NCBI GenBank assembly: GCA_043739185.1
Contig: JAYUEN010000246.1
Location: 1 to 14,978 of the forward strand
DNA from: Bdellovibrionales bacterium
GTDB lineage: Bacteria > Bdellovibrionota > Bdellovibrionia > Bdellovibrionales > JAMPXM01
Length of the DNA stretch: 14,978 nt
Direction of reading: 5' to 3'
Shown: piece after piece, positions 499-14,897 of the stretch
How the letters are laid out: each line of letters begins with the position of its first letter
How positions within the stretch are numbered: position 1 is the first letter of the stretch
Translations under genes and position numbers: made by a program
The notes under the pieces: model-generated
Databases searched by the model: none
Seen by the model: only the letters and a program-made list of their open reading frames with translations
What the model was told of the DNA's origin: nothing

Positions 499-3400
499 CT
501 ATTTTGACTTCATTTCATGAACTCCGTCCCAATTTTCAGCGGGAGCTTCTTTCATATAATCTTCGCATCTCTCGACATAGAGTTTACTCGGTTCGTCATT
601 GGGCGAAATTTTGAGTACGCTTCTGAAGCTTGCAAGCGATTCGGCAAATTGCCTATTGTGATAATGGGAGAATCCTTCATTCCAATGTTTGAGTAATTCC
701 GAAGTTTGGTTTGAGATTTGTCCTTCGCCCATTAATTCAAAAATTCGCACTGGGAGTTTTTTGCCCTTTACCTTTACCCAATCCATTTCGCGAGTGATAA
801 AGGTCGCTCCCGCGGCTCGTTGGGTAAATTCACTAATGATGATGCGTGTGCCGTATTGTTTATTGATACCTTCAAGTCTAGAGCCTAAATTCACGGCATC
901 ACCCATGATCGTATAGCTTCTCACTGTTAGCGAACCCATATTCCCGACGCTCATTTCTCCGGAATTGAGTCCGATTCCAATATCAATTTCAGGAAGTCCT
1001 TTGGCTACCCAGTCGCGCTGAAGCTCCTTGAGCTTTACAATACTTTGAAGGGCGCATCGGCAGGCCCATTGGGCATGATCATCGAAGGGGATTGGTGCTC
1101 CCCAAAAAGCCATGATGGCATCACCCATATATTTATCAAGAGTGCCTTTATTTTCAAAAACTAGATTCGTCATGGGTGTAAGATAACTATTAAGTAAATC
1201 TGAAAGCGCTCTCGGATCTAATTTCTCTGAAATCGTAGTAAAGCCACGAACGTCTGAAAACATGACGGTCAACTCCATTTTTTTACCACCCAATTCAATA
1301 TTGCTGGGGTCGGCTAAAATTTCGGCAACAATCGAAGGTGAAACGTATTTCTCAAATGTGCCTTTGAGCTCCCGTTTTTTTCTCTCTTCAGTAAAATACT
1401 TATAAAAAGTAAGAACAATGAAAAGAGTTAAAACAAACGAAAGTGGAATGACAATATTGATAACGATGCCATTTTTGAACAAATAGTATTTGTCGGCGTA
1501 GTAAAGAGTCCCTGCGCTTACAAGAGTTAAAATCAAACCAGGAATTGAACTTAAGATTGCAAGTAAATATGAAAACAGAGCACCAAAAATGAGAACTCCA
1601 AAAGTCATATAGCTTTGCTCTTGAACGTGGGTCCTTAAAAAGCCGGGTTTGTCTTTGAGCTCTTGACTGATGCTTTCACCAGCTTTTATTTTCTTATTTC
1701 TTTCAAGTTCGACAAGTAAATTTGAGAGAACATTGGCGTGGGTTTCAACTCCGGGATAGTTTTCTTCAAAGGGTGTCACGCGCAAATCATAAATTCCAAT
1801 TGCGGTCGCTCCAAAAATAAGAATTTTGTCTTTCAAAAAATCTTTTCGATTTACTTTTTGAGTTTCGCGAATCTCAAATTTTTTAGTTTTAGGATCCATT
1901 TCGGCGCGCTCGTAGCTAATGGTTTCAGAGTTGTTTAAAAGCTCGGTCGCCGGAATATGGGCAAACATTTTTTGCCGGCCCGAGTAGTTTATCGATAATT
2001 CGCCGAAAGCATTCACCGGAATTTTCATAACCACGTCGCCATTTTCATTGGTGGCTGAAAAATCAGAGACAATTTTGTGAGTTTCGTCTGCTCGATTGAA
2101 TCCTTCTTCATTGATTTTAACTTGTATTCCAAATTTATTGGCAAGCATAAAGGCCTTTAAAGCTATGCTCGGAAAATAACTATAGCCCCAATGACTCATC
2201 AAATAGCTTTTGCGAACGGTTCCGTCTGAGTCGAGATCGGCATTAAAATACCCACTATGTTTGGTCGCCTGCGCGAGTAACGGGAAGTTAAGGGTCCAAT
2301 TATAGATCGGGGCCACTGAATTTGTCAGAAAATGATCTTTGTATGCGTGAATCCATTCTTCAAATTTTAGATTGGCAAATTTTTTATTTTCAGTCTGTGC
2401 TTGAGCCCATGCATCTGGTAAAGAAAGATCTTTATATTCTGAAATAACTTGAGAATAGTGAGTTGGTGAAATGAGATTGTCAGTATGGCTTAAGAAGCGA
2501 GAGCAATAATTACTGGTGACGCGCTTATTTAATTCCTTTAAGTCGGCTTCATTTTTATGGCCGAGTAGGTTCTCGGTTTCCTCAAAGAGCTGAGGAATCT
2601 GCGCTAGTAACTTTGGATCCGAAGCAAACAAGCTTTGAAAAGTTTGATCGTCCTCTAACATTATTTTTTGAAGTAAAATGGCAACTTGATCTTTTGGAAT
2701 GCCAATGCCCAATTTATTAAAGTGCATATGCAACTGATCAAGAATTGAGGGGTGAGCAAGAAGCCATTCTGAAATTTCCCGAATTTCAAGCTCGTCAAAA
2801 AAAGTATTCAGTCGGGTTTTAAAAGCCGTAGGCAGATGCTCTTTCTCTTCTTCAGAGTCTAAGACCACGATTGGCAACTCTTCTTTGCTCCAATATTTAG
2901 CGTAAGGAGAACGTTTGAAAAGCAAATCATCGCAAGCGTCTTGCCAAGGCTGTCTTTCAGAAGTCACATCCTCGGCGAAAAAAGATCCCATGACGAGATG
3001 ATCTGCATGTTTTTTGATGGCCACTGAAAATTTATAATCACTTGCAGCCGTTTGCATTTCTCGACCAACAAAATCATTCAATGCTAGATTTGAGACTGAA
3101 TTTTGACTTAAAAAAGTTTTGAGTTTATTTAAAACGGGGAGTGAAGAATTTTGATCCTCCTCTGAAAAGACGGCATCGAAGGCGACAACCTTGGCTCCCG
3201 CTGCGATCGCATTTGAAATGATTGCACCAATTTTCTCTCTCGGCCAGGGCCAACGTCCCTCTTTTTCGATTGATCGATCGTCTACTGCAATAATTGCAAC
3301 TTGCTCACTACCGTACTTTGGGCCGCGATCAAGAAGACGCCAATCAATTGATTTTTCGTGAAGCAAATTGATTGCATGATAAATTAGATTGAAATTCGAT

Positions 3401-3522
3401 TTATCTTTGCTTTCCTGACTGTAGTAGTGAGTCAAAATGTAAAAAAATAGTGCGGTGACAACCAGACCTAGGGTTACTGGCGAAATGAGAAGTTTCACTA
3501 AGTACTTGAGTTTTTTTTTCAT
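499..3522 (-). CDS. Membrane-bound CHASE2-domain class III adenylate/guanylate cyclase with C-terminal TPR-like segment
   Basis: N-terminal TM helix. CHASE2 motifs: IIAVDDRSI..GRWPWPR, VVAFDAVF, GYFN..DSDGTVR, FGATA..DLRVTP..PGVETHANVL. Three further TM helices. Cyclase motifs: MFSDVRGFTTISE, TLDKYMGDAIMAFWGAP, GIGLNSG..VGNMGS..RSYTIMGDAVNLGSRLEG. The substrate Lys plus Thr in place of Asp fits an ATP-using class IIIb enzyme. Confidence 0.93.
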   Translation of the reverse strand: MKKKLKYLVKLLISPVTLGLVVTALFFYILTHYYSQESKDKSNFNLIYHAINLLHEKSIDWRLLDRGPKYGSEQVAIIAVDDRSIEKEGRWPWPREKIGAIISNAIAAGAKVVAFDAVFSEEDQNSSLPVLNKLKTFLSQNSVSNLALNDFVGREMQTAASDYKFSVAIKKHADHLVMGSFFAEDVTSERQPWQDACDDLLFKRSPYAKYWSKEELPIVVLDSEEEKEHLPTAFKTRLNTFFDELEIREISEWLLAHPSILDQLHMHFNKLGIGIPKDQVAILLQKIMLEDDQTFQSLFASDPKLLAQIPQLFEETENLLGHKNEADLKELNKRVTSNYCSRFLSHTDNLISPTHYSQVISEYKDLSLPDAWAQAQTENKKFANLKFEEWIHAYKDHFLTNSVAPIYNWTLNFPLLAQATKHSGYFNADLDSDGTVRKSYLMSHWGYSYFPSIALKAFMLANKFGIQVKINEEGFNRADETHKIVSDFSATNENGDVVMKIPVNAFGELSINYSGRQKMFAHIPATELLNNSETISYERAEMDPKTKKFEIRETQKVNRKDFLKDKILIFGATAIGIYDLRVTPFEENYPGVETHANVLSNLLVELERNKKIKAGESISQELKDKPGFLRTHVQEQSYMTFGVLIFGALFSYLLAILSSIPGLILTLVSAGTLYYADKYYLFKNGIVINIVIPLSFVLTLFIVLTFYKYFTEERKKRELKGTFEKYVSPSIVAEILADPSNIELGGKKMELTVMFSDVRGFTTISEKLDPRALSDLLNSYLTPMTNLVFENKGTLDKYMGDAIMAFWGAPIPFDDHAQWACRCALQSIVKLKELQRDWVAKGLPEIDIGIGLNSGEMSVGNMGSLTVRSYTIMGDAVNLGSRLEGINKQYGTRIIISEFTQRAAGATFITREMDWVKVKGKKLPVRIFELMGEGQISNQTSELLKHWNEGFSHYHNRQFAESLASFRSVLKISPNDEPSKLYVERCEDYMKEAPAENWDGVHEMKSK

Positions 3523-3656
3523 TTCTAAAGATGGTCCTCAGTCGTTTACCGTATTCTGATTGTAGGAATAGATGTGTATATGAGGCAAAGAAATTCCTCG
3601 CAGACTAAAAGCTAGTATAGCGCTCAAAACTTAGGTCTACCTGGGCCTTGGAATCC

Positions 3657-3686
3657 TTGAGCCGAGCATTGCTCAAATGATATTCT
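3657..3686 (+). promoter_or_regulatory. Possible sigma-70 promoter of the STAS gene, overlapping an inverted repeat
   Basis: TTGAGC (3657-3662), 18-nt spacer, TATTCT (3681-3686) preceded by TGn. Inverted repeat TTGAGC-N8-GCTCAA at 3657-3676. Confidence 0.35.
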
Positions 3687-3723
3687 TTAAATATATATTT
3701 TCAAAATCGGTGGGAGACCAATT

Positions 3724-4200
3724 ATGCAGGCGCGTTTAAAAAATGAAGCTGATATAAAAATAGTTGAACTTTTTGGACGAGTTGAAATTGAAGGATCCGA
3801 GTCGTTTAAACTCAATTGTCTCAATACACTCATTGGCCAAAAGGTTATTTTTGATTTGGCCGGTCTTAACTTTGTCGGCAGTACCGGCATACTTGCATTC
3901 TTAGAGGGCCTTCAAGAATTCGCGATTCAAAATCCAAATCGCTTTAAATTTTGTCATGTTGGTTCTGAATTTAAAAAAATATTTGCAGCGACAAGTCTCG
4001 CTTGCATCGATATTTTTGAATCTACTCAAATGGCGCTAGCTTCTTATCAAAATATTGAAACGAGTCAGAATACTGCTGTTGAGCTCATTCCATTTAAACG
4101 GGATGCCTCGATATTTAAGGATCTCGACATAATTGAAATTCCAGAAGAAGTAGAGGCCATTGCCTTAACTGAAAAAGCGATCGAAAACGACTCGAATTAA
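3724..4200 (+). CDS. STAS-domain protein (anti-sigma-factor antagonist-like)
   Basis: IVELFGRVE and VIFDLAGLNFVGSTGILAFL match the SpoIIAA/RsbV pattern DLxxVxFxDSxG. SD-like GGGAG upstream. Acidic C-terminal tail. Stop overlaps the stop of the convergent gene (TTAA, 4197-4200). Confidence 0.85.
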   Translation: MQARLKNEADIKIVELFGRVEIEGSESFKLNCLNTLIGQKVIFDLAGLNFVGSTGILAFLEGLQEFAIQNPNRFKFCHVGSEFKKIFAATSLACIDIFESTQMALASYQNIETSQNTAVELIPFKRDASIFKDLDIIEIPEEVEAIALTEKAIENDSN

Positions 4201-5285
4201 TCTTTCTCTTTGATTACATCGGTTTCGTTGATTCGAAGTTCGTTGCTCTTTTTTTGAGTAAGTTTGTTTAAATGAATTAATTCACCATGAATGTATCCAA
4301 AATTATTATGTTTCAGTCTTTGAGGGAACCAAGAGAAGAATTCCCGCTCATCTGAACGACATACAGCTTGCCGGTTTTTACCTTTCTCTACCAATTCGTC
4401 GCCTATTACTCGCGCTGGGCTGAATTGAAGCCCCTCACTTAAAATGGTTTTATCCTGTGGCTTGGTTTTTCGCATAAGCAAGTAAGAGTAAGTAATGGTT
4501 TCGTTTTTAAAGGGGAGTACTTTTTCAATTGCTTGAGACCATTTAGAATGTTCAATTTTAATTCGGTCATGACACCAATCCGTTTTTGAATGTATGAGCA
4601 AAGGACATCCTAAATTATGCGTGCAGGGGCCCCAGGCATTGTAATTGGATTTTATGAGCTTCGCCCTGGTCTCCATGAGCTGCCTTGCATGCAGCGAGGT
4701 TGAAGGTTCAATAATTAAAAGGGCTTCAAACTTTTGCGCATGGTTTAAGAAATTTGTTTTTTCTAGATCAGAAAACTCATTCCAACTGTAAGACAAGCAG
4801 GCGAGATCATATTGTTCTTCTGTGTTTAGTTTGTCTTGTTTGGTAAATTTCACTGAGCGCAAGGGCAGAATTGAGTTTGAATTCTCAAATAATCGCTTTT
4901 GGATTTCAAGAGCTTCGCCTGAAACATCTAAACTATTAAGTTGCGTGAGATTGGCTTGAGCTAAATTAAGAGTGAGTGATCCCAGCCCCGAGCCAATATC
5001 GACAGCACTTTTAAGGCCAGTGAAGAAGTTGAGGCGCTGCGCTTCTTCACACACAGCTTGGGCCCGCAAAAAGTTTAATGGAAAATAGTATGCAAGATAT
5101 GCAATTTGCGCCCACTTTTCAGAGAGCGGACTTCTTGACGAAGCGTCAATGAAATGATTGGAGAGTCGTAAAATGCATTCTTTTATTCTTGAAATATCAT
5201 TTGGATCACAATTCAATTTTTCAAGTTCGATCCAAATTTTTTCTTCTAAGTATTGCGGAAATTTGAAGTTTCTAAGTTTAGACAT
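4197..5285 (-). CDS. Rsm22/METTL17-family SAM-dependent methyltransferase-like protein
   Basis: AYLAYYFP, SAM motif VDIGSGLG, LSYSWNE, LLIIEPST, GPCTHNLGCPL, DWCH and TYSYLL are all characteristic of the Rsm22 family. Confidence 0.85.
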   Translation of the reverse strand: MSKLRNFKFPQYLEEKIWIELEKLNCDPNDISRIKECILRLSNHFIDASSRSPLSEKWAQIAYLAYYFPLNFLRAQAVCEEAQRLNFFTGLKSAVDIGSGLGSLTLNLAQANLTQLNSLDVSGEALEIQKRLFENSNSILPLRSVKFTKQDKLNTEEQYDLACLSYSWNEFSDLEKTNFLNHAQKFEALLIIEPSTSLHARQLMETRAKLIKSNYNAWGPCTHNLGCPLLIHSKTDWCHDRIKIEHSKWSQAIEKVLPFKNETITYSYLLMRKTKPQDKTILSEGLQFSPARVIGDELVEKGKNRQAVCRSDEREFFSWFPQRLKHNNFGYIHGELIHLNKLTQKKSNELRINETDVIKEKD

Positions 5286-5312
5286 GAAGAAAAGGCCTTA
5301 ATTAGATTGAGC

Positions 5313-5351
5313 AAAAAAAAAGGGCTGAGTCGAGGGGTAGCGACTCAGCCC
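5313..5351 (-). terminator. Rho-independent terminator
   Basis: On the minus strand, a perfect 11-bp GC-rich stem GGGCTGAGTCG/CGACTCAGCCC (5322-5332 and 5341-5351) with 8-nt loop CTACCCCT is followed directly by 9 T (5321-5313). Confidence 0.9.
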
Positions 5352-5400
5352 AGCCAAGGTGAAGGAGGTCCCAGATGCAAGGGGGTGATGCATCCGTTAC
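5313..5400 (-). ncRNA. Putative ~88-nt sigma-54-dependent small RNA with C-rich, anti-SD motifs
   Basis: Bounded by a -24/-12 promoter and an intrinsic terminator. Predicted RNA: GUAA-CGGAUGCA-UCACCCCCU-UGCAUCUG-GGACCUCCUUCACCUUGGCU-GGGCUGAGUCG-CUACCCCU-CGACUCAGCCC-U9. Confidence 0.65.
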
Positions 5401-5410
5401 AAACTTATAA

Positions 5411-5428
5411 AGCAATCACGGGGCCAAA
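5411..5428 (-). promoter_or_regulatory. Sigma-54 (RpoN) -24/-12 promoter
   Basis: Minus strand reads TTTGGCCCCGTGATTGCT, with GG at 5425-5424 and GC at 5413-5412. This is the exact GG-N10-GC spacing of consensus TGGCACG-N4-TTGCW. Predicted TSS ~5400. Confidence 0.7.
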
Positions 5429-5534
5429 GTTTGGGTGAGCTAAAGGCTTATAAATTGGATCAAGACGCCAGTGAAAACCTAGTTTTTGTTAGACAGGTCG
5501 GCAATTTTTGTTACTAGACCACAGAGTATTCGCA

Positions 5535-5563
5535 TTGAGCGAGCCATTGAAATGGCCTATAAT
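5535..5563 (+). promoter_or_regulatory. Sigma-70 promoter for the 5582 gene and bcp, with a palindrome in the spacer
   Basis: TTGAGC (5535-5540), 17-nt spacer, TATAAT (5558-5563). The spacer holds the perfect inverted repeat GCCATT-GA-AATGGC (5543-5556). SD AGAGGA at 5571-5576. Confidence 0.65.
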
Positions 5564-5581
5564 TCAATTTAGAGGACATCT

Positions 5582-6343
5582 ATGAAATCGATTCTACTCA
5601 AAAGCCTGGCGTTTAACTTTTTGACAGTTTCGGCAATGGCCTTAGATAGTGCAGCTACTATCGCAGATACCGTCAAAATCTTAGGAATGCCGGACTACGC
5701 AACTATTAACTTTACTCAGGATACCGAAACGCACTATCTCAGTTTACCAGAGCGCTCGGATTGGCGAGTGGCCTTTCAAACCAAGGCTAAGAAATACCTA
5801 TTTGAAAAGGATGCTTCTGGTGACAACGGCAAATCCTTGGTGCAAATCAATTTGAATACCGATGGAAGCATAAAAGAAAGTGTTACCTATTTCTCAGATG
5901 CGAGCGGGAAAAAAACCGAGTTACGCTATACCTCTTTTTTAGAAGCTCCAAAATTTTCAAATACGACTATCTGTTGGAGTTTAAAATCTTGTATAACACT
6001 GAATCATGAATATTGTATGAAACTCTTACGAGCACAAAAAGAAGACAAACTTCAAGAGTTTTTGAATGCGCCCACAAAGAAAGACTTAACGGAATTGCAG
6101 ATACTAAATGAATATGCGCTTTTTGGTAGTTCTGCCAATAAACACCTCAACTTCTGGAAGCTTGATCCCATAAAGCCCGGTAACCATCTTCCTCGACTGG
6201 TGGCTGAAAAAGCGACTAGAGAGCAGGTTAGTGAAACCCATAAGGTTTGCCAGGACTTAATTGGCGCATCAAAACTTCCTCCGTCGAAAACAGAGTCGAT
6301 TCGCCCTATTCGTAAAAGAGCTAAGGCATCAGATAAAAGTTAA
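5582..6343 (+). CDS. Hypothetical secreted protein (253 aa)
   Basis: Long ORF with promoter and SD. Sec-type signal peptide MKSILLKSLAFNFLTVSAMA, four Cys, basic C-terminus. No family recognised. Confidence 0.75.
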   Translation: MKSILLKSLAFNFLTVSAMALDSAATIADTVKILGMPDYATINFTQDTETHYLSLPERSDWRVAFQTKAKKYLFEKDASGDNGKSLVQINLNTDGSIKESVTYFSDASGKKTELRYTSFLEAPKFSNTTICWSLKSCITLNHEYCMKLLRAQKEDKLQEFLNAPTKKDLTELQILNEYALFGSSANKHLNFWKLDPIKPGNHLPRLVAEKATREQVSETHKVCQDLIGASKLPPSKTESIRPIRKRAKASDKS

Positions 6344-6354
6344 TTGGAGCTTAA

Positions 6355-6867
6355 ATGCCACTACTCAAAGCTACAAAAACAAATTCAAAATCAAAGGCAA
6401 AAACTTTCATTGGTAAAAAAGCACCGGATTTCAAGCTGCCCATGACCGGAAATCAAATTTTTGATTTGAAAAATTTAAAAGGACAGAAATTTGTTTTGTA
6501 TTTCTATCCAAAAGATAAAACTCCTGGATGCACTCTTGAAGCACAAGATTTTTCAAAGTTAAAAGCGCAATTTAAAAAATATGGGGCACTCGTCTTTGGT
6601 GTTTCTCGCGACAGCCTTAAAATTCATGAGTCTTTTAAAGAGAGCTGTCAGATCAATATAGATCTGGTCGAAGACCAAGACGAGTTACTTTGTAAGGCTT
6701 ATGATGTCATTCAAATGAAGAGTCTATATGGACGCAAGTTCAAAGGAATCGAGCGCTCAAGCTTCGTTATTGATGAAGAGGGCGTGATACGATCAGAATG
6801 GCGAAAGGTAAAAGTAAAAGATCATGCCCAGGAAGTTTTAGATTTTATTAAAGGCTTAATGCCTTAA
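6355..6867 (+). CDS. bcp: Peroxiredoxin, BCP/PrxQ family
   Basis: GKKAPDFKL, VLYFYPKDKTPGCTLEAQDF (PxxxTxxC), VFGVSRD, GIERSSFVID. SD GGAG at 6346-6349. Confidence 0.93.
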   Translation: MPLLKATKTNSKSKAKTFIGKKAPDFKLPMTGNQIFDLKNLKGQKFVLYFYPKDKTPGCTLEAQDFSKLKAQFKKYGALVFGVSRDSLKIHESFKESCQINIDLVEDQDELLCKAYDVIQMKSLYGRKFKGIERSSFVIDEEGVIRSEWRKVKVKDHAQEVLDFIKGLMP

Positions 6868-6872
6868 GACTC

Positions 6873-9494
6873 TCATTCGTGTTTTTCAAATATACCTTGT
6901 AGCCGATTTTTTAGAGCTTCAATCTTATCCTGTTTCTCAGCACCTGCTTTTGTCGTCTTGGTCGGCAGGGCAGGAGTCTCTTGCTCTTCAACATCGTCCG
7001 GATCAACCGGACCATCATCTGCTTTTACTTTGATTTCTGGGGGAGCAATTCCTCGTAGTTTATCGCTTTCTTTCTTTGCCACATAAACTAGTGTTCTTTT
7101 AAGAATTTCTTGAATGCTATTTTGGGCGAAGTTAGCTTCTGGCGCTCTCAGATTTCCCTGAATTGAAAAAGGAATTCGAAAGCGCCCGGCAGCATCCGAG
7201 TTAGCCAGTTTTACATCGCCGCCAATCGGGGCGTCCGCCAAAAAAGCATTGCCTTCCAAATTCAGATTTTCTGATGGAATAGCAATACTTCCTTTGGCCT
7301 GAAGTTCATTTTTTCCTGGGGTTAGCAGCTTAAAATCTGAAATATTCATGATGGAGTCGGCAAAATTAAATAGCATTGAAATATCAGAGCCCATAGGAAT
7401 TCCCGTGGGCTTTGCTTTGCCGATCCCAGGAATTTGCGCAAGCTTTTCGTTGATTAAATCATCAATTCCGCGCTTTGAAATGAAGGCGTTCTTTAAGTGA
7501 ACGCGGCCCTTTGATTCAAAGTGTGCGAGTCGATCTTCGCTCTTAGGTAGTAATGCGCGAAAAGACAATTGGCCCGATGCCTCTCCTTTTACGAGCTCCC
7601 CTGAATCACTGTTCAATTGACCTACAAATCGATTGGCATCAATTTTTGAAAAGTCTGCTTCGCCACTAAATTCAGAAAGCTCGTTCTTATAGTTGTAGAC
7701 GAGATTCTTAAATTGAATTTCACCAGAATCTATTTTATTGATTTTGGCACTTCCATTAATATTTTCATCTGCCAGATTAAAACTACCATTGAGGCCTTCG
7801 GCTACCAGTCGATTGAACTGAAATTGACTTGCTAGCAAGTCAATTTTAAAATTATTGGATTTAAATTTTGGAAAATAAAATGAATAAGGCGTTTCTTCGC
7901 TTGATCCCGGCGCTGGCTCTGTTGGTTGACTCTTGTTAGAATTTTCAATTTGAGAGGTCGCACTTTGTAATTGGCTCAACTTAAAATTAGCAGAGCCGTT
8001 AATACTGAGTGCCGTTTTTGTATGAAGCTTACCATAGGGACCCTTGATTTCGGCATTCAAATCAAAAGGACCCTTAAACTGATATCTATGGTCCTGAGAG
8101 GTATATTGCAAATTTCCCTTTAGTCGTTCGAGTTTTAGCGTTTGAATATTGAGATCAAAATCATTCTCTGAGAGTTCATTGATATAGGAATCGAGAGAAA
8201 AAATCCCGCTAAGCGGCGCCCCTCCAAAAAAAGTAAAATACTTCTCCCAATCTGAAAGGCTTGTGGGGCGAATTGAAAAATGAAGCTTGGTCGCACTTTG
8301 TTTGTTAAAAGAAAGGGCGCCATCTAAATGTGCATTGAGAGTTAAGAAATCAAAATTAAAATCTTGGACATCAAAGATTTGGTCCTGCCCAGAAAGCTTG
8401 AACATCAACGACATTGGCACTTGTTTTGGCTTATTAAAAAATCCCGAATTTCTGACTTCTAAATCATTGAGATTCGCGTTCAAATCCAATGAGGATATTC
8501 TAAAAGATTTGGCATATGAAAATTTTGAATCCAGATCAATAAGTATTGGACCTTCTAACTCCAGTTGTTCTTGCTTGAAATCGAGATCGGCAGATAAAGC
8601 CTTGGTTTTTAAATCGCCAAAGACTTGCCAATCAAGCTCTGAACTGAGAGAAGCTGAAATATTTGCTTTTAGTGCGCCCTTAAAATTCTTCAAATGTTCT
8701 ACGTGAGGTGGATTGCTCAACTTTGATAAGTCTGAGGACTCACTTACGAGCTTCCAGTCTGCGGTATTTTCGAGAAAATTTTGTTGTCCTTCAAAGCTAA
8801 AATTGATGCCGGAAATCAGCCCGGAGCTAGGACTCACAGATAAAATTTGATCTTTGTATGTAAATTGGCCGTTCATTTCAAAAGGCAAGCCAAGTGCGGG
8901 CTTAAATCTTGTCATTTTAGCTTTAACATTGAAACTCCAGTCCTTATCAATTCCTGGAATATTCACTTCAAAATCAAGGGGATCGAAGGAAGTTTCGTTT
9001 TCAAACTGTGCTTCAGTGCTAATTTGCGTGATTTTGATTTTAGCTCTTTCGACCTTGAGCTCTAAGTTAAAATCTCGACCAAACTTAAATTGAGTTCGAG
9101 TTACAAACTCTGGTTTATTAGGTTTCTGATCAGAAGCCTGAGCCCGCAATTCATAATTAAAACGTGGGTCTTCGACTTTCATTCGAATGGGACCAAAAGG
9201 TATTTTTCGATTAAACAAACTCTTGTTAAGAGGTATTTCAATATAGATTTTGGCGATATCGACTTTAAGATTGGGATCTTTGAGGTCAAATTTTAAGCCT
9301 GTCGCAGCGATTGAAATTTTAGGTAAAATGAGTACTCTCAAATCCCGAATTTGAACAGGAGTACCTAGTAGTTCAGAAGACTTTTGCTGAATCATTTCTT
9401 TTACTTTGGGAGACAAATAATACTTGGCGTACATCAGGCCACCGCTAATGCTCATAGCTGAGGAAACAACTATATATATTAAAAAATTTTTCAT
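6873..9494 (-). CDS. AsmA-like envelope protein (repeating beta-groove lipid-bridge superfamily)
   Basis: 873 aa with a single N-terminal TM. AsmA-like start (IQQKSSELLGTPVQIRDLRVLILP), long amphipathic beta-strand pattern, and C-terminal GSIAIPSENLNLEG...IPFSIQGNLRAP as in AsmA_2 domains. Start overlaps the ltaE stop. Confidence 0.7.
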   Translation of the reverse strand: MKNFLIYIVVSSAMSISGGLMYAKYYLSPKVKEMIQQKSSELLGTPVQIRDLRVLILPKISIAATGLKFDLKDPNLKVDIAKIYIEIPLNKSLFNRKIPFGPIRMKVEDPRFNYELRAQASDQKPNKPEFVTRTQFKFGRDFNLELKVERAKIKITQISTEAQFENETSFDPLDFEVNIPGIDKDWSFNVKAKMTRFKPALGLPFEMNGQFTYKDQILSVSPSSGLISGINFSFEGQQNFLENTADWKLVSESSDLSKLSNPPHVEHLKNFKGALKANISASLSSELDWQVFGDLKTKALSADLDFKQEQLELEGPILIDLDSKFSYAKSFRISSLDLNANLNDLEVRNSGFFNKPKQVPMSLMFKLSGQDQIFDVQDFNFDFLTLNAHLDGALSFNKQSATKLHFSIRPTSLSDWEKYFTFFGGAPLSGIFSLDSYINELSENDFDLNIQTLKLERLKGNLQYTSQDHRYQFKGPFDLNAEIKGPYGKLHTKTALSINGSANFKLSQLQSATSQIENSNKSQPTEPAPGSSEETPYSFYFPKFKSNNFKIDLLASQFQFNRLVAEGLNGSFNLADENINGSAKINKIDSGEIQFKNLVYNYKNELSEFSGEADFSKIDANRFVGQLNSDSGELVKGEASGQLSFRALLPKSEDRLAHFESKGRVHLKNAFISKRGIDDLINEKLAQIPGIGKAKPTGIPMGSDISMLFNFADSIMNISDFKLLTPGKNELQAKGSIAIPSENLNLEGNAFLADAPIGGDVKLANSDAAGRFRIPFSIQGNLRAPEANFAQNSIQEILKRTLVYVAKKESDKLRGIAPPEIKVKADDGPVDPDDVEEQETPALPTKTTKAGAEKQDKIEALKNRLQGIFEKHE

Positions 9495-10528
9495 TTTTGT
9501 CTTTGCCTCAGGAGTTCTTTAGTTTTAATTCCGAATTTTTGAATGTCTTCTTCACGAGAATCAAAACCAGTCATGAGACGCGCTTCAAAGTTTGTTTCAT
9601 TCCAAATATAAAAAAAATGATGTTTTTTCAATTCATGAACTATTTCTTTTGGGAAAAGGGCGAATACAGCGTTAGACTCCGTTGCCTGAGTAATTTGGAT
9701 TTCGGGCATTTCAAGCAAACTCGCCCTCATCAGTTGCGCCATCGCAAGGCTGTGTTTTGAAATCTCTTTCCAGAGGTCTGTGCATAACCAGGCTTCAAAT
9801 TGGGCCGCTACAAATCTAGTCTTACTTGCAAGTTGCATACATTGTTTGCGTTTAAATTTAAAATCCTTTGCTAAGTGTTTATTTAAAATAACCACTGCTT
9901 CGCCAAATAAAAGTCCATTTTTTGTCCCGCCCAAAGACACCACATCCATATATTGGGTCAATTCGTTTAAGCTTGTACTCAAATGAGTTGCAGCGTTTAC
10001 GAGTCTTGATCCGTCCATGTGAAGATAAAGAGAATTTTTATCGGCAAATTGTTTGAGTTCTCGTAGTTCATCAAGAGTGTATACTGTGCCATACTCGGTT
10101 GGCTGCGTAATCGAAATACCAACTATTTGAGAAGCATGTTGGTCGCCCTTTCGAATTAAATAAGGCTTTAAAGCTTGGGGGCTTAGCTTTGCATTTGAAC
10201 TAGGAATGGCGATAAGCTTACAGCCCAAAAGTTTTTCGGGGGCACCACATTCATCTACCCAAAGATGCGATGTGTTCGCCGTTAATATCGCGTGATAAGA
10301 ATTCGCAAAGCAAGAAAGTGCTAGAACATTGGCCGCGGTGCCATTGAATACAAAATGAATTTCAGAATCCTTTGTGAAATGCGATTTCATTTTTTGAATT
10401 ACACCGAGGGTATAATCATCTGTTCCGTAGGAGGCGGAATGCCCAAAATTAACAGCGGCCAAAGATTCTAGAATCTTTGGGTGAACCCCGGAGTGGTTGT
10501 CGCTGCCAAAATGAGTTGTCAAATCCAA
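9491..10528 (-). CDS. ltaE: Low-specificity L-threonine aldolase (PLP-dependent)
   Basis: FGSDNHSG, YGTD, FNGTAANVLAL, HLWVDECGAPE, TQPTEYGTVY, LHMDGSRL, SLGGTKNG (PLP Lys). Start placed at TTG 10528, after SD AAGGGAGA (10540-10533). The ORF-track start at 10555 overlaps hutG. Confidence 0.88.
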   Translation of the reverse strand: MDLTTHFGSDNHSGVHPKILESLAAVNFGHSASYGTDDYTLGVIQKMKSHFTKDSEIHFVFNGTAANVLALSCFANSYHAILTANTSHLWVDECGAPEKLLGCKLIAIPSSNAKLSPQALKPYLIRKGDQHASQIVGISITQPTEYGTVYTLDELRELKQFADKNSLYLHMDGSRLVNAATHLSTSLNELTQYMDVVSLGGTKNGLLFGEAVVILNKHLAKDFKFKRKQCMQLASKTRFVAAQFEAWLCTDLWKEISKHSLAMAQLMRASLLEMPEIQITQATESNAVFALFPKEIVHELKKHHFFYIWNETNFEARLMTGFDSREEDIQKFGIKTKELLRQRQK

Positions 10529-10538
10529 AATTTCTCCC

Positions 10539-11486
10539 TTATATTGCAAATACAAATTTGTGCATGATCAGTGCTGCTAGTTTCGAGGTTTGATTGTCTT
10601 GATCGAGAGGCGGTGAGCACTCATAAATTCCAATGCCTCGAACATCGAGGCGTTTATTCAAAATGGAGGTCAACTGAAAAAACTCATCGATTTGAAAACC
10701 GGTGGCAAAGCTTTGACTGCAACCAGGAGCATAGGCACTTGAAAACCCATCAATGTCGATTGAGAGAAAGCACTTTCTCCGCTTGGTTATCAAGTGGGAA
10801 AGTCTTTTAATACAATAGCTACTTAGATTTTCACCCGAAAGCCTGAAGTCATCATACTTTAAAACTTCGACCTGATGTTCTCTTGAATAATCAAAGTGAG
10901 CTAAGGAATTGCATTGGGCTTGTATGCCGATTTGAACTAAATCTATTTCTTGGTATTTCTCGAGAATTCTAAAAAATGGTGTACCGCTATTGATTCCATT
11001 TTCAGTGGAGCGAACGTCAAGATGGGCATCAAAATTGATAATGAGCGGGCGATCCTCACAAGTTTCAATGAAGGCCGAGACATCGGCGAAGGCGTAGTCG
11101 TGGCCTCCGCCGAGTGCAATCCATTTGTAGTTGTTTTTAAGAGCTTGGGTTGCTATCTCTTTGGCTTTTTCGTGTCGCATTTCGAGTTCAAATTTTTGAA
11201 TCTCAAGGTCGCCCAGATCGCCCAAATCAAATTTCATTTGTGCTGCCGGAGTCATTTTATAAAAGAATTCACGAATTTTGTATGGTGCAAGGGCCGCTCC
11301 CAAGCGCCCTGAATTATTTTTTATACCTTCATCATCGGGATAGCCGGCAATTAAGAAATAGTCTTTTTGATCTTTTTGCATTTCAAAAAAATTGTAATCC
11401 AAAGCGATGACTTTTTCGCCCAAGCGGAGGTCATTTGATTTCTGACTCTTGAAAAATAATTTTGCATCTGTTTTTTTGAATATCAA
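10539..11486 (-). CDS. hutG: Formimidoylglutamase (arginase/ureohydrolase family)
   Basis: GYPDDEGIKNNSGRLGAALAP, GGGHDYAF, INFDAHLDVR, NSGTPF, SIDIDG..AYAPGCS and ECSPPLD..TSKLAA are HutG-type variants of the arginase metal motifs. TTG start. Confidence 0.88.
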   Translation of the reverse strand: MIFKKTDAKLFFKSQKSNDLRLGEKVIALDYNFFEMQKDQKDYFLIAGYPDDEGIKNNSGRLGAALAPYKIREFFYKMTPAAQMKFDLGDLGDLEIQKFELEMRHEKAKEIATQALKNNYKWIALGGGHDYAFADVSAFIETCEDRPLIINFDAHLDVRSTENGINSGTPFFRILEKYQEIDLVQIGIQAQCNSLAHFDYSREHQVEVLKYDDFRLSGENLSSYCIKRLSHLITKRRKCFLSIDIDGFSSAYAPGCSQSFATGFQIDEFFQLTSILNKRLDVRGIGIYECSPPLDQDNQTSKLAALIMHKFVFAI

Positions 11487-14470: not shown

Positions 14471-14749
14471 TTATGTATCAGAGCATTTAGTTTGATTTAC
14501 GCAGTCATCGGCAAAATCAATTTGGCGATCTTTGAAATCTTCGCGCTTCATATTCGAATGCCTTTCGCGAAGCAGCTCCGAGCGCTTTGCAAGACATTGT
14601 GCTGAAACTTTCTCGAGGGCGGCTTCGTAAGTGGCCCGTGCTTTTATAACGCCTATTTCGGGCGACTCGAAAACACAGGTGGTTGCCTTGGCTTGAGCTG
14701 AAAGTGCGCCGAATATGATTTGCAATACGATTAGGATTTTCTTAAACAT
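14471..14749 (-). CDS. Small secreted hypothetical protein (92 aa, four Cys)
   Basis: Perfect SD AAGGAGG (14762-14756) 6 nt before ATG 14749. Signal peptide MFKKILIVLQIIFGALSAQA. Four Cys in the mature part. Confidence 0.75.
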   Translation of the reverse strand: MFKKILIVLQIIFGALSAQAKATTCVFESPEIGVIKARATYEAALEKVSAQCLAKRSELLRERHSNMKREDFKDRQIDFADDCVNQTKCSDT

Positions 14750-14897
14750 CTCAGACCTCCTTGAGGGACTCATCTTTAACTATTGCAAGCCTAAGCCATC
14801 TTGCTCAGCCATTAATTGATTTTGAGGAGGACATTACTGGAGGCTCCCAAAGCGGGCGTGCCAGCTGTCAAAAACTTAGACAGGCTTGTGTCTCTTT

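What the first reader, a model, noticed from the sequence alone, without database searches (positions are those of the whole stretch)
5313..5428. Unannotated sigma-54-driven small RNA displaying three anti-Shine-Dalgarno-like motifs
Seen: on the minus strand, in order, a GG-N10-GC promoter (TGGCCCCGTGATTGCT, 5426-5411), an 8-bp stem with loop UCACCCCCU (5396-5372), an unpaired linker GACCUCCUUCACCUU, and an 11-bp terminator with loop CUACCCCU plus U9. No protein gene lies between promoter and terminator. The linker and both loops resemble the 16S rRNA 3' tail (GAUCACCUCCUU). Known: sigma-54-dependent sRNAs exist (Vibrio Qrr, Myxococcus Pxr), and C-rich or anti-SD loops are the RBS-targeting elements of S. 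aureus RsaE/RNAIII and alphaproteobacterial AbcR. Inference: a trans-acting translational repressor switched on by an enhancer-binding protein. I do not recognise it as a named family.
Basis: partly seen in the sequence, partly recalled or inferred. Interest (0 to 1): 0.8.

Follow-up and report, generated by a model that had tools for sequence, protein, structure and literature searches.

The report
Sigma-54 small RNA mimicking ribosome's tail
A conserved, uncatalogued gene predicted to make an 88-base regulatory RNA in uncultured relatives of the predatory bacterium Bdellovibrio shows three exposed cytosine-rich patches that likely cover the ribosome-binding sites of messenger RNAs, possibly including that of the flagellar sigma factor.

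Summary
In detail: a sigma-54 motif, two hairpins with C-rich loops, an unpaired linker and a U9 terminator (fold z = -4.9). Homologues occur in 8 of 35 genomes of this Bdellovibrionales family (5 genera) and on one metagenome contig. All 9 keep the promoter at the same spacing, and the stems change compensatorily. In two genomes the RNA faces a convergent tdo gene, so it is a free-standing gene, not an rsm22 leader. Rfam gives no match at threshold (best MmgR, 19.8 of 41 bits). One refinement: the exact anti-Shine-Dalgarno ACCUCCUU is in only 4 of 9 members; the invariant parts are C5, UCACC and C4. RpoN is present. Hfq was not found in any of 35 genomes. Best reading: an Hfq-independent repressor pairing with G-rich ribosome-binding sites, like sX13 or 6C RNA. 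The best candidate target is fliA (matching site in 7 of 7 carriers, 5 of 22 others), but it is weak and was picked post hoc. There are no expression data. The scan earlier reported sibling sigma-54 C-rich RNAs on other Bdellovibrionales DNA; this is a separate family.

The parts
5485..5514 (-). Candidate upstream activator site for an enhancer-binding protein: GTAACAAA (5514-5507) and a second half-site (5495-5485), about -114 to -85
   Evidence: Both halves are conserved in 5 of 9 members and the first half in a sixth, while the flanks diverge (mean column identity 49%). Of 322 sigma-54-like motifs in the genome, 5 have a half-site 30-150 nt upstream and only this one has the two-part form. 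Function inferred.
5411..5426 (-). Sigma-54 (-24/-12) promoter motif
   Evidence: TGGC-N7-TTGCT is invariant and sits 10-11 nt before the RNA start in 9 of 9 members. G008 and L101 were found with a model or pattern that lacked the promoter and still have it. RpoN and 22 full-length activator domains are in the genome.
5313..5400 (-). Predicted 88-nt small RNA
   Evidence: Fold; homologues; covariation. Transcription not shown.
5372..5396 (-). Stem-loop 1 with a C5 run in the loop (5385-5381)
   Evidence: A hairpin with a mostly unpaired C5-6 run forms in 9 of 9 members although the stem sequences differ. A further sediment contig has a different 8-bp stem around the same loop (loose end at 5370, read by eye).
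5352..5371 (-). Single-stranded linker; ACCUCCUU (5369-5362) copies the 16S tail in this genome, and UCACC (5362-5358) is the invariant seed
   Evidence: UCACC is unpaired (probability 0.97-1.0) in 9 of 9 members. The 16S tail of relatives is canonical.
5313..5351 (-). Intrinsic terminator: 11-bp stem, loop with a C4 run (5337-5334), U9
   Evidence: In 8 sequences, 100% of cells pair and 5 of 11 pairs change on both sides.
4197..5285 (-). Downstream neighbour: Rsm22-like methyltransferase gene (context only)
   Evidence: Pfam PF09243, E 3e-24. It lies directly downstream of the RNA in the 6 members where this was checked (G000-G003, G010, G013), but not in G008 or G019.
6355..6867 (+). bcp-type peroxiredoxin gene, the recurrent divergent neighbour (context only)
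   Evidence: AhpC-TSA. It is directly divergent from the RNA in G008 and G019.

Best explanation
This is a conserved, free-standing gene predicted to make an 88-nt small RNA from a sigma-54 promoter, and the RNA likely damps translation of several mRNAs by pairing its exposed C-rich patches with G-rich ribosome-binding sites without help from Hfq. Shown: the anatomy, the conservation, the covarying stems, the unpaired invariant motifs (C5, UCACC, C4), the presence of RpoN, the lack of an Hfq match, and the enrichment of the complementary words at start-codon regions. Inferred: an enhancer-binding protein bound at about -100 switches the gene on. The two C-runs would dock on GGGG-type SD sites, and the UCACC seed would select GGUG(A/G)-type sites, occluding the 30S subunit. 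fliA (sigma-28) is the best but weak candidate target. Step odds: real sRNA gene about 0.93, sigma-54 dependent about 0.88, acts by pairing at ribosome-binding sites about 0.65-0.7.
For: Conservation: 93-97% identity within the genus while the adjacent Rsm22 protein is 66-68% identical; 8 of 35 family genomes. Covariation: 9 of 21 pairs change on both sides, 0 of 500 shuffles reach this, and slid controls give 1-3. Free-standing gene: convergent with tdo in G008 and G019. Chaperones: Hfq in 0 of 35 family genomes; ProQ not found in this genome. Complementarity: among 4315 called genes, GGGG occurs in 264 SD zones vs 61 control zones, and AGGTG in 82 vs 17. The linker has a perfect match of 6 or more nt in 463 of 4289 SD zones, vs 100 and 112 in control zones; 0 of 200 shuffled linkers reach this. 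Helices of 7 bp or more covering UCACC: 81 vs 18 and 26 in G000, 45 vs 5 and 15 in G010. In 619 G000-G010 orthologue pairs the SD type is retained: G4 vs canonical OR 3.4, p 0.006; GGTG vs canonical OR 12.5, p 0.002. Precedent: sX13 (PMC3771888, passages) and 6C RNA (PMC6486639, abstract) repress through C-rich loops without Hfq.
Against: No RNA run holds this DNA, so expression is unknown. Any C-rich RNA will match SD zones, so enrichment is expected and does not prove pairing. The letter order of both loops is no better than shuffles (loop 1: 87 vs shuffled mean 102; loop 2: 46 vs 78), and by gapped duplex energy the linker also equals its shuffles (0.245 vs 0.237). SD-type retention may be plain descent, since canonical words are retained as strongly. 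The best single match in this genome, sufC (11 nt), is not conserved. The ftsH match is confined to the genus. The fliA helix is only 6-9 bp with 1-3 G-U pairs. In sX13, compensatory mutations failed to restore regulation (PMC3771888, passages).
Confidence: 0.62

Rival explanations
1. Protein decoy: the RNA displays repeated C-runs to titrate a pyrimidine-binding protein (KhpA/B, an RRM protein, a cold-shock protein or S1), in the way sigma-54-driven CrcZ titrates Hfq/Crc (CrcZ mechanism recalled).
For: The invariants are short runs displayed on stems of any sequence. Analogous sigma-54 RNAs elsewhere in the order carry one to four C-loops, some of only 4-6 nt. The genome has KhpA and four RRM proteins. 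The upstream GTAACA half-site equals a CbrB subsite at crc-type promoters (PMC6296734, passages). Loop order is no better than shuffles.
Against: The third invariant, UCACC, is not a C-run: it is a piece of the 16S tail whose complement is enriched at start codons in two genomes. There are only three motifs, few for a sponge. No binding protein was identified.
Confidence: 0.2
2. RNA-RNA sponge pair: the real partner is another, G-rich small RNA, as CrfA pairs with the anti-SD core of SisA-D in Caulobacter, and mRNA pairing is secondary.
For: Precedent for anti-SD sRNAs being paired by a G/A-rich RNA (PMC12559287, passages). No strongly conserved long mRNA match was found.
Against: No such partner RNA was sought or seen. 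In the precedent, the C-rich RNA still represses mRNAs.
Confidence: 0.07
3. Cis element: the sigma-54 promoter belongs to rsm22, and the RNA is a 5' leader or attenuator whose terminator is read through conditionally.
For: The terminator ends 28 nt before the rsm22 ATG, and rsm22 follows directly in 6 members.
Against: In G008 and G019 the same RNA points into a convergent tdo gene, and rsm22 lies on the other strand more than 1 kb upstream. Most other family genomes have rsm22 without the RNA. No alternative antiterminator fold is predicted.
Confidence: 0.05
4. No function as an RNA: an ordinary terminator next to chance promoter-like and hairpin sequence.
For: No expression data. The gene is present in only 8 of 35 family genomes.
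Against: The promoter is present at fixed spacing in 9 of 9 members and in 0 of the 19 non-member pattern hits. Stem 1 is rebuilt with different letters around the same loop. No same-strand upstream gene needs this terminator.
Confidence: 0.03

Closest known systems
sX13 of Xanthomonas (PMC3771888, passages read)
   Same: Stable stems showing 4C/5C loops; Hfq-independent; represses mRNAs with G-rich motifs near start codons; about 5% of genes have a 4G site at the RBS (here 264 of 4315).
   Different: Three C-loops versus two loops plus a UCACC linker; other phylum; no Rfam match; a sigma-54 promoter here.
alpha-r8 / MmgR / SisA-D (Rfam RF00519; PMC12559287, passages read)
   Same: Same layout: 5' hairpin, single-stranded anti-SD stretch, terminator. 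Best Rfam hit (19.8 bits).
   Different: Below the gathering score of 41; lacks the UUUCCUCCCU 10-mer; not beside an FGase gene; Hfq not found; not Alphaproteobacteria; C-rich loops in addition.
6C RNA of Actinobacteria (PMC6486639, abstract read)
   Same: C-rich loops pairing with mRNAs without RNA chaperones.
   Different: No Rfam hit, different lineage, extra UCACC linker, sigma-54 promoter.
alpha-r14 / NfeR1 (cuckoo-type) RNAs (PMC10746234, passages read)
   Same: Three exposed anti-SD-like elements on stems of variable sequence; Hfq-independent.
   Different: The CCUCCUCCC motif is absent in 9 of 9 members; two hairpins, not three; the NfeR1 promoter lacks a sigma-54 signature.
Pxr of Myxococcus xanthus (PMC5684412, passages read)
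   Same: sRNA with a predicted sigma-54 promoter and upstream enhancer region in a predatory bacterium without Hfq.
   Different: No sequence or Rfam match; no NtrC-like activator gene adjacent here; three stem-loops in Pxr.
Tiny sigma-54 poly-C RNA of Bdellovibrionales (uncatalogued; scan note e1-8564604)
   Same: Same promoter type and spacing, similar first bases, a C-run at the 5' end and in the terminator loop. Found here by pattern in 159 of 384 genomes of the order, with 1 control hit.
   Different: About 50-55 nt, no 5' hairpin, no UCACC linker, different terminator stem, often beside amidase-rph. It co-occurs with this RNA in G008, G013 and G019, so it is a separate gene.

Membership tests
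alpha-r8 / MmgR (RF00519) | Covariance score at or above the gathering score of 41 | tested here: not met
   19.8 bits, E 0.074 on 351 nt
alpha-r8 / MmgR (RF00519) | Single-stranded 10-mer UUUCCUCCCU | tested here: not met
   Absent in 9 of 9 members; the conserved seed is UCACC
alpha-r8 / MmgR (RF00519) | 5' hairpin, single-stranded anti-SD stretch, intrinsic terminator | tested here: met
alpha-r8 / MmgR (RF00519) | Adjacent FGase gene and Hfq association | tested here: not met
   Neighbours are rsm22, bcp and tdo; Hfq in 0 of 35 genomes
alpha-r14 / cuckoo-type (NfeR1) | Three hairpins, each with CCUCCUCCC | tested here: not met
   Two hairpins; motif absent
6C RNA, sX13, Pxr and other Rfam families | Match to the family model | tested here: not met
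   No hit at threshold; none of these is listed even at E up to 10
C-rich-loop, Hfq-independent base-pairing sRNAs (works-like class) | Conserved unpaired C-rich motifs on covarying stems | tested here: met
C-rich-loop, Hfq-independent base-pairing sRNAs (works-like class) | Complementary G-rich sites at start regions of the host's mRNAs | tested here: met
   expected of any C-rich RNA, so of limited weight
C-rich-loop, Hfq-independent base-pairing sRNAs (works-like class) | Conserved specific targets | tested here: inconclusive
   fliA 7 of 7 carriers vs 5 of 22 others; sufC and ftsH not conserved
C-rich-loop, Hfq-independent base-pairing sRNAs (works-like class) | Expression and seed-dependent repression | not testable with these tools
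   No RNA run available for this DNA
Sigma-54-dependent sRNA genes | Conserved -24/-12 motif at the right spacing; RpoN and activators in the genome | tested here: met
Sigma-54-dependent sRNA genes | Loss of transcription without RpoN or activator | not testable with these tools
   Needs an experiment
Tiny sigma-54 poly-C RNA of Bdellovibrionales (scan note e1-8564604) | C-run directly after +1 followed by a GCGGY terminator stem; amidase-rph locus | tested here: not met
   The pattern does not match this RNA; both genes co-occur in 3 genomes

The most novel reading that the evidence does not exclude
A sigma-54-activated RNA copies part of the ribosome's own anti-SD tail to shut off translation of fliA, the sigma-28 proposed to run most attack-phase promoters in Bdellovibrio bacteriovorus. 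It would be an RNA brake for the switch from hunting to growth, and one arm of an order-wide set of Hfq-independent sigma-54 C-rich RNAs that read the type of Shine-Dalgarno sequence (GGGG or GGUG) as a regulatory code.
Probability: 0.17. Interest if true: 0.78.

Novelty: new member of a known kind. Interest (0 to 1): 0.5.

Why it matters
Post-transcriptional control in predatory Bdellovibrionales is almost undescribed. The sRNA list I found is eight attack-phase RNAs (PMC3627812, Table 2 read), and a 2026 review has no occurrence of 'sRNA', 'small RNA' or 'Hfq' (PMC13689555, term search only). This family, with its siblings across the order, points to a layer of sigma-54-driven, Hfq-independent riboregulation. 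If fliA is a true target, the long-open question of what drives the attack-to-growth switch gains a testable RNA component. The family itself was found only in uncultured genomes, so tests must be heterologous or use the sibling RNA in cultured relatives.

Tried and rejected
Rfam: only sub-threshold hits (the sibling RNA likewise). Expression: no RNA holder listed; the two DNA runs laid give contigs only. A loose promoter-plus-start pattern matched at about control level and was uninformative. A promoter-plus-UCACCUU pattern over 384 genomes gave 29 matches, of which 5 were known members and the rest looked like chance on inspection of the printed match. The invariant-motif pattern over 35 family genomes returned the 8 members plus 5 further places with no promoter, so no member was found in G007, G016 or G017. 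Small peptide: not conserved. Repeat or mobile element: single copy. sufC as target: an 11-nt match in G000, a GGTGA-type site in 3 of 7 carriers, weak in two same-genus genomes. ftsH: TGAAGGAG in 3 same-genus genomes only, of 6 examined. purA could not be checked (one search returned no result). Enrichment of secreted proteins among G-run SD genes: 0.358 vs 0.329 for canonical SD, p 0.42, rejected. Whole-RNA cofolding with fliA ranked in the top 6.5% of 400 sampled genes, but through a fold that used the U-tail rather than the seed, so it is no support. A regulon sharing the upstream site was not found. The G000-G010 comparison covers 1.96 of about 3.7 Mb of G010 and could not be extended. 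Gene starts came from my own simple caller and are partly wrong, which blurs all SD counts.

Full report
Observation. The -12 element places +1 at G5400 and gives an 88-nt RNA ending in U9 at 5313. The fold is far more stable than shuffles (z -4.87, 0 of 200). The terminator is the only one called in 4500-6500 and the only one of 34 strong terminators in the genome with a CCCC loop. The exact promoter motif has about a 5e-5 chance of falling in a given 5-nt window. Rfam has nothing at threshold; the best hits are MmgR at 19.8 of 41 bits and SorY at 16.4 of 111. The element is single-copy.

Organism and context. Contigs that carry homologues are titled Bdellovibrionales or Bdellovibrionaceae bacterium. 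The RNA lies between an Rsm22-like methyltransferase gene (downstream, same strand) and a divergent unknown gene followed by a bcp-type peroxiredoxin. The genome (97.65% complete) has RpoN and 22 full-length sigma-54 activator domains among 26 matches. Hfq was found in 0 of 35 family genomes and ProQ was not found in this genome; KhpA and four RRM proteins are present. No 16S gene is assembled here, but 4 of 5 relatives searched have the canonical tail.

Family. BLAST and synteny gave homologues in G001-G003 (93-97% identical, against 66-68% for the Rsm22 protein), G013 and G010. A covariance model without the promoter found G008 (E 6e-7), and a promoter-free pattern found one metagenome contig, L101 (1 member among 10 stretches); both have the promoter at the right place. 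The same pattern over the GTDB collection gave 16 stretches: 6 were members already known, and the other 10 had no significant model score (best E 0.19) and no promoter. A model that included the promoter added G019. A pattern of the three invariant motifs confirmed 8 of 35 family genomes (5 of 17 genera), with 5 extra promoter-less places. No member was recognised in the 120 and 131 genomes of other families sampled; these searches use lossy filters, so this is 'not found', not 'absent'.

Structure. On the MAFFT alignment of 8 members, 9 of 21 pairs change on both sides (0 of 500 shuffles; slid controls 1-3). The terminator pairs in 100% of cells, and stem 1 in 72% because of register shifts. 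Folded one by one, all 9 members form stem 1, keep UCACC unpaired (probability 0.97-1.0) and show C-runs in both loops. A sediment contig carries the same terminator with a different 8-bp stem 1 around the same C5 loop (read by eye). In G008 and G019 the RNA is divergent from bcp and convergent with tdo, which rules out an obligatory leader role for rsm22. The short frame from the ATG at 5393 is not conserved. A two-part upstream motif at -114 to -85 is kept in 5 of 9 members, and in part in a sixth. Its GTAACA half equals a CbrB subsite (PMC6296734, passages), which is a resemblance only.

What is really conserved. The exact 8-nt copy of the 16S tail is in 4 of 9 members. The invariants are C5, UCACC (itself part of the 16S tail) and C4. 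With my own rough gene calls, GGGG occurs in 264 SD zones vs 61 control zones of 4315 genes, and AGGTG in 82 vs 17. The linker matches 6 or more nt perfectly in 463 of 4289 SD zones, more than all 200 shuffles, whereas the loops do no better than their shuffles, and gapped duplex energy does not separate the linker from shuffles. UCACC-covering helices of 7 bp or more are enriched at SD zones in both G000 (81 vs 18 and 26) and G010 (45 vs 5 and 15, among 1663 genes). In 619 orthologue pairs from the 1.96 Mb of G010 that I held, GGGG sites are shared in 11 (3.9 expected); these include hppD, hmgA, a cystathionine gamma-synthase family gene, tdk, smc and two DksA-like genes. The SD type is retained given that both orthologues have an SD, but canonical words are retained as strongly, so descent may explain it.

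Candidate targets. sufC and ftsH failed the conservation check. fliA was the only one of the 619 pairs with a UCACC helix of 7 bp or more in both genomes (0.48 expected, so not significant alone), and I picked it post hoc. Across the family, 31 of 35 genomes had a fliA match and 30 loci were fetched, one of them (carrier G001) cut before the start. The GGUG(A/G) site is present in 7 of 7 carriers and 5 of 22 others. Two of those five (G004, G020) also lack an rsm22 match, so their carrier status is unknown, and one non-carrier start (G012) is uncertain. Genus-level Fisher p is 0.03-0.04 with the discovery genera and 0.09-0.12 without them, and kin are not independent. The helices are 6-9 bp, -7.3 to -10.8 kcal/mol. 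FliA is proposed as the global attack-phase regulator in B. bacteriovorus (PMC3627812, passages). This is a lead, not a result.

Wider setting. The promoter-containing model also retrieved other sigma-54 C-rich RNAs. A 50-55 nt one, often beside amidase-rph, matches a pattern in 159 of 384 genomes of the order with 1 control hit. It co-occurs with this RNA in G008, G013 and G019 but was not found in G000-G003 or G010. Other one- to four-hairpin forms occur in further families (22 loci inspected; the promoter was part of the model). The scan had noted the tiny RNA and a 75-nt one-loop form before, on other DNA; look-ups by place and by sequence found nothing for this stretch.

Literature. Eight searches listed no paper describing this RNA; most subscription papers are not covered and I read no supplements, which could hold unlisted Bdellovibrio sRNAs. 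Read as passages: PMC3627812, PMC12559287, PMC10746234, PMC3771888, PMC6296734, PMC5684412, PMC12622784. Abstract and outline only: PMC6486639. Term search only: PMC13689555. The mechanism of CrcZ is recalled.

Verdict. A real, uncatalogued sRNA family of a known working type (C-rich, Hfq-independent, RBS-pairing), most likely sigma-54 dependent; overall mechanism 0.62, protein decoy 0.2. It fails the membership tests for MmgR, alpha-r14, 6C, sX13 and Pxr, and is a separate gene from the tiny poly-C RNA of the same order.

Noticed in passing
L089:1484-1568 (G083), L129, L133-L139, L141, L143, L215; 159 of 384 order genomes: A tiny (50-55 nt) sigma-54-driven RNA with a 5' C-run and a C-rich terminator loop, often beside amidase-rph. 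No Rfam hit at threshold. Not found in G000-G003 or G010, so this finding's RNA may stand in for it there.
   Followed up: partly
L206, L207 (G267, G266), L202 (G339), L199 (G059), L191, L193 (G054, G241), L189, L190: Further sigma-54 C-rich RNAs with other layouts: four hairpins with CCCC loops, two hairpins, or a long unpaired C-rich 5' part.
   Followed up: no
L127 (G011), L132 (G007), L128 (G034), L130 (G025): A C-rich single-stranded stretch plus a terminator with a C-loop; in G034 and G025 it lies upstream of a gene that looks like a tyrosine recombinase (name from recall). G011 has a sigma-54-like motif before it.
   Followed up: no
L088:1290-1578 (G191) and L087 (G072): A short secreted-peptide-like ORF upstream of a murA-like gene, with a sigma-54 motif in G191 and a C-rich terminator loop in both genomes.
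   Followed up: no
G000:C188, 16356-16387 minus, with look-alikes in G001-G003, G015, G019, G023, G026: A conserved sigma-54 motif directly upstream of a sigma-54 activator gene, suggesting autoregulation.
   Followed up: no
window 6873-11486 and L083, L126: Amino-acid catabolism genes recur near the RNA (threonine aldolase-like lyase, arginase-family gene, tdo, a cyclase/kynurenine formamidase-like gene), and hppD and hmgA are among the genes with conserved GGGG SD sites. This hints at an amino-acid signal.
   Followed up: partly
window 14471-14773 (minus): The start region of this unknown gene has a 9-nt perfect complement to the RNA's linker; it is a canonical SD and its conservation was not checked.
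   Followed up: no
window 499-4200: A CHASE2 adenylate/guanylate cyclase gene divergent from a STAS-domain gene whose stop overlaps the rsm22 stop.
   Followed up: no
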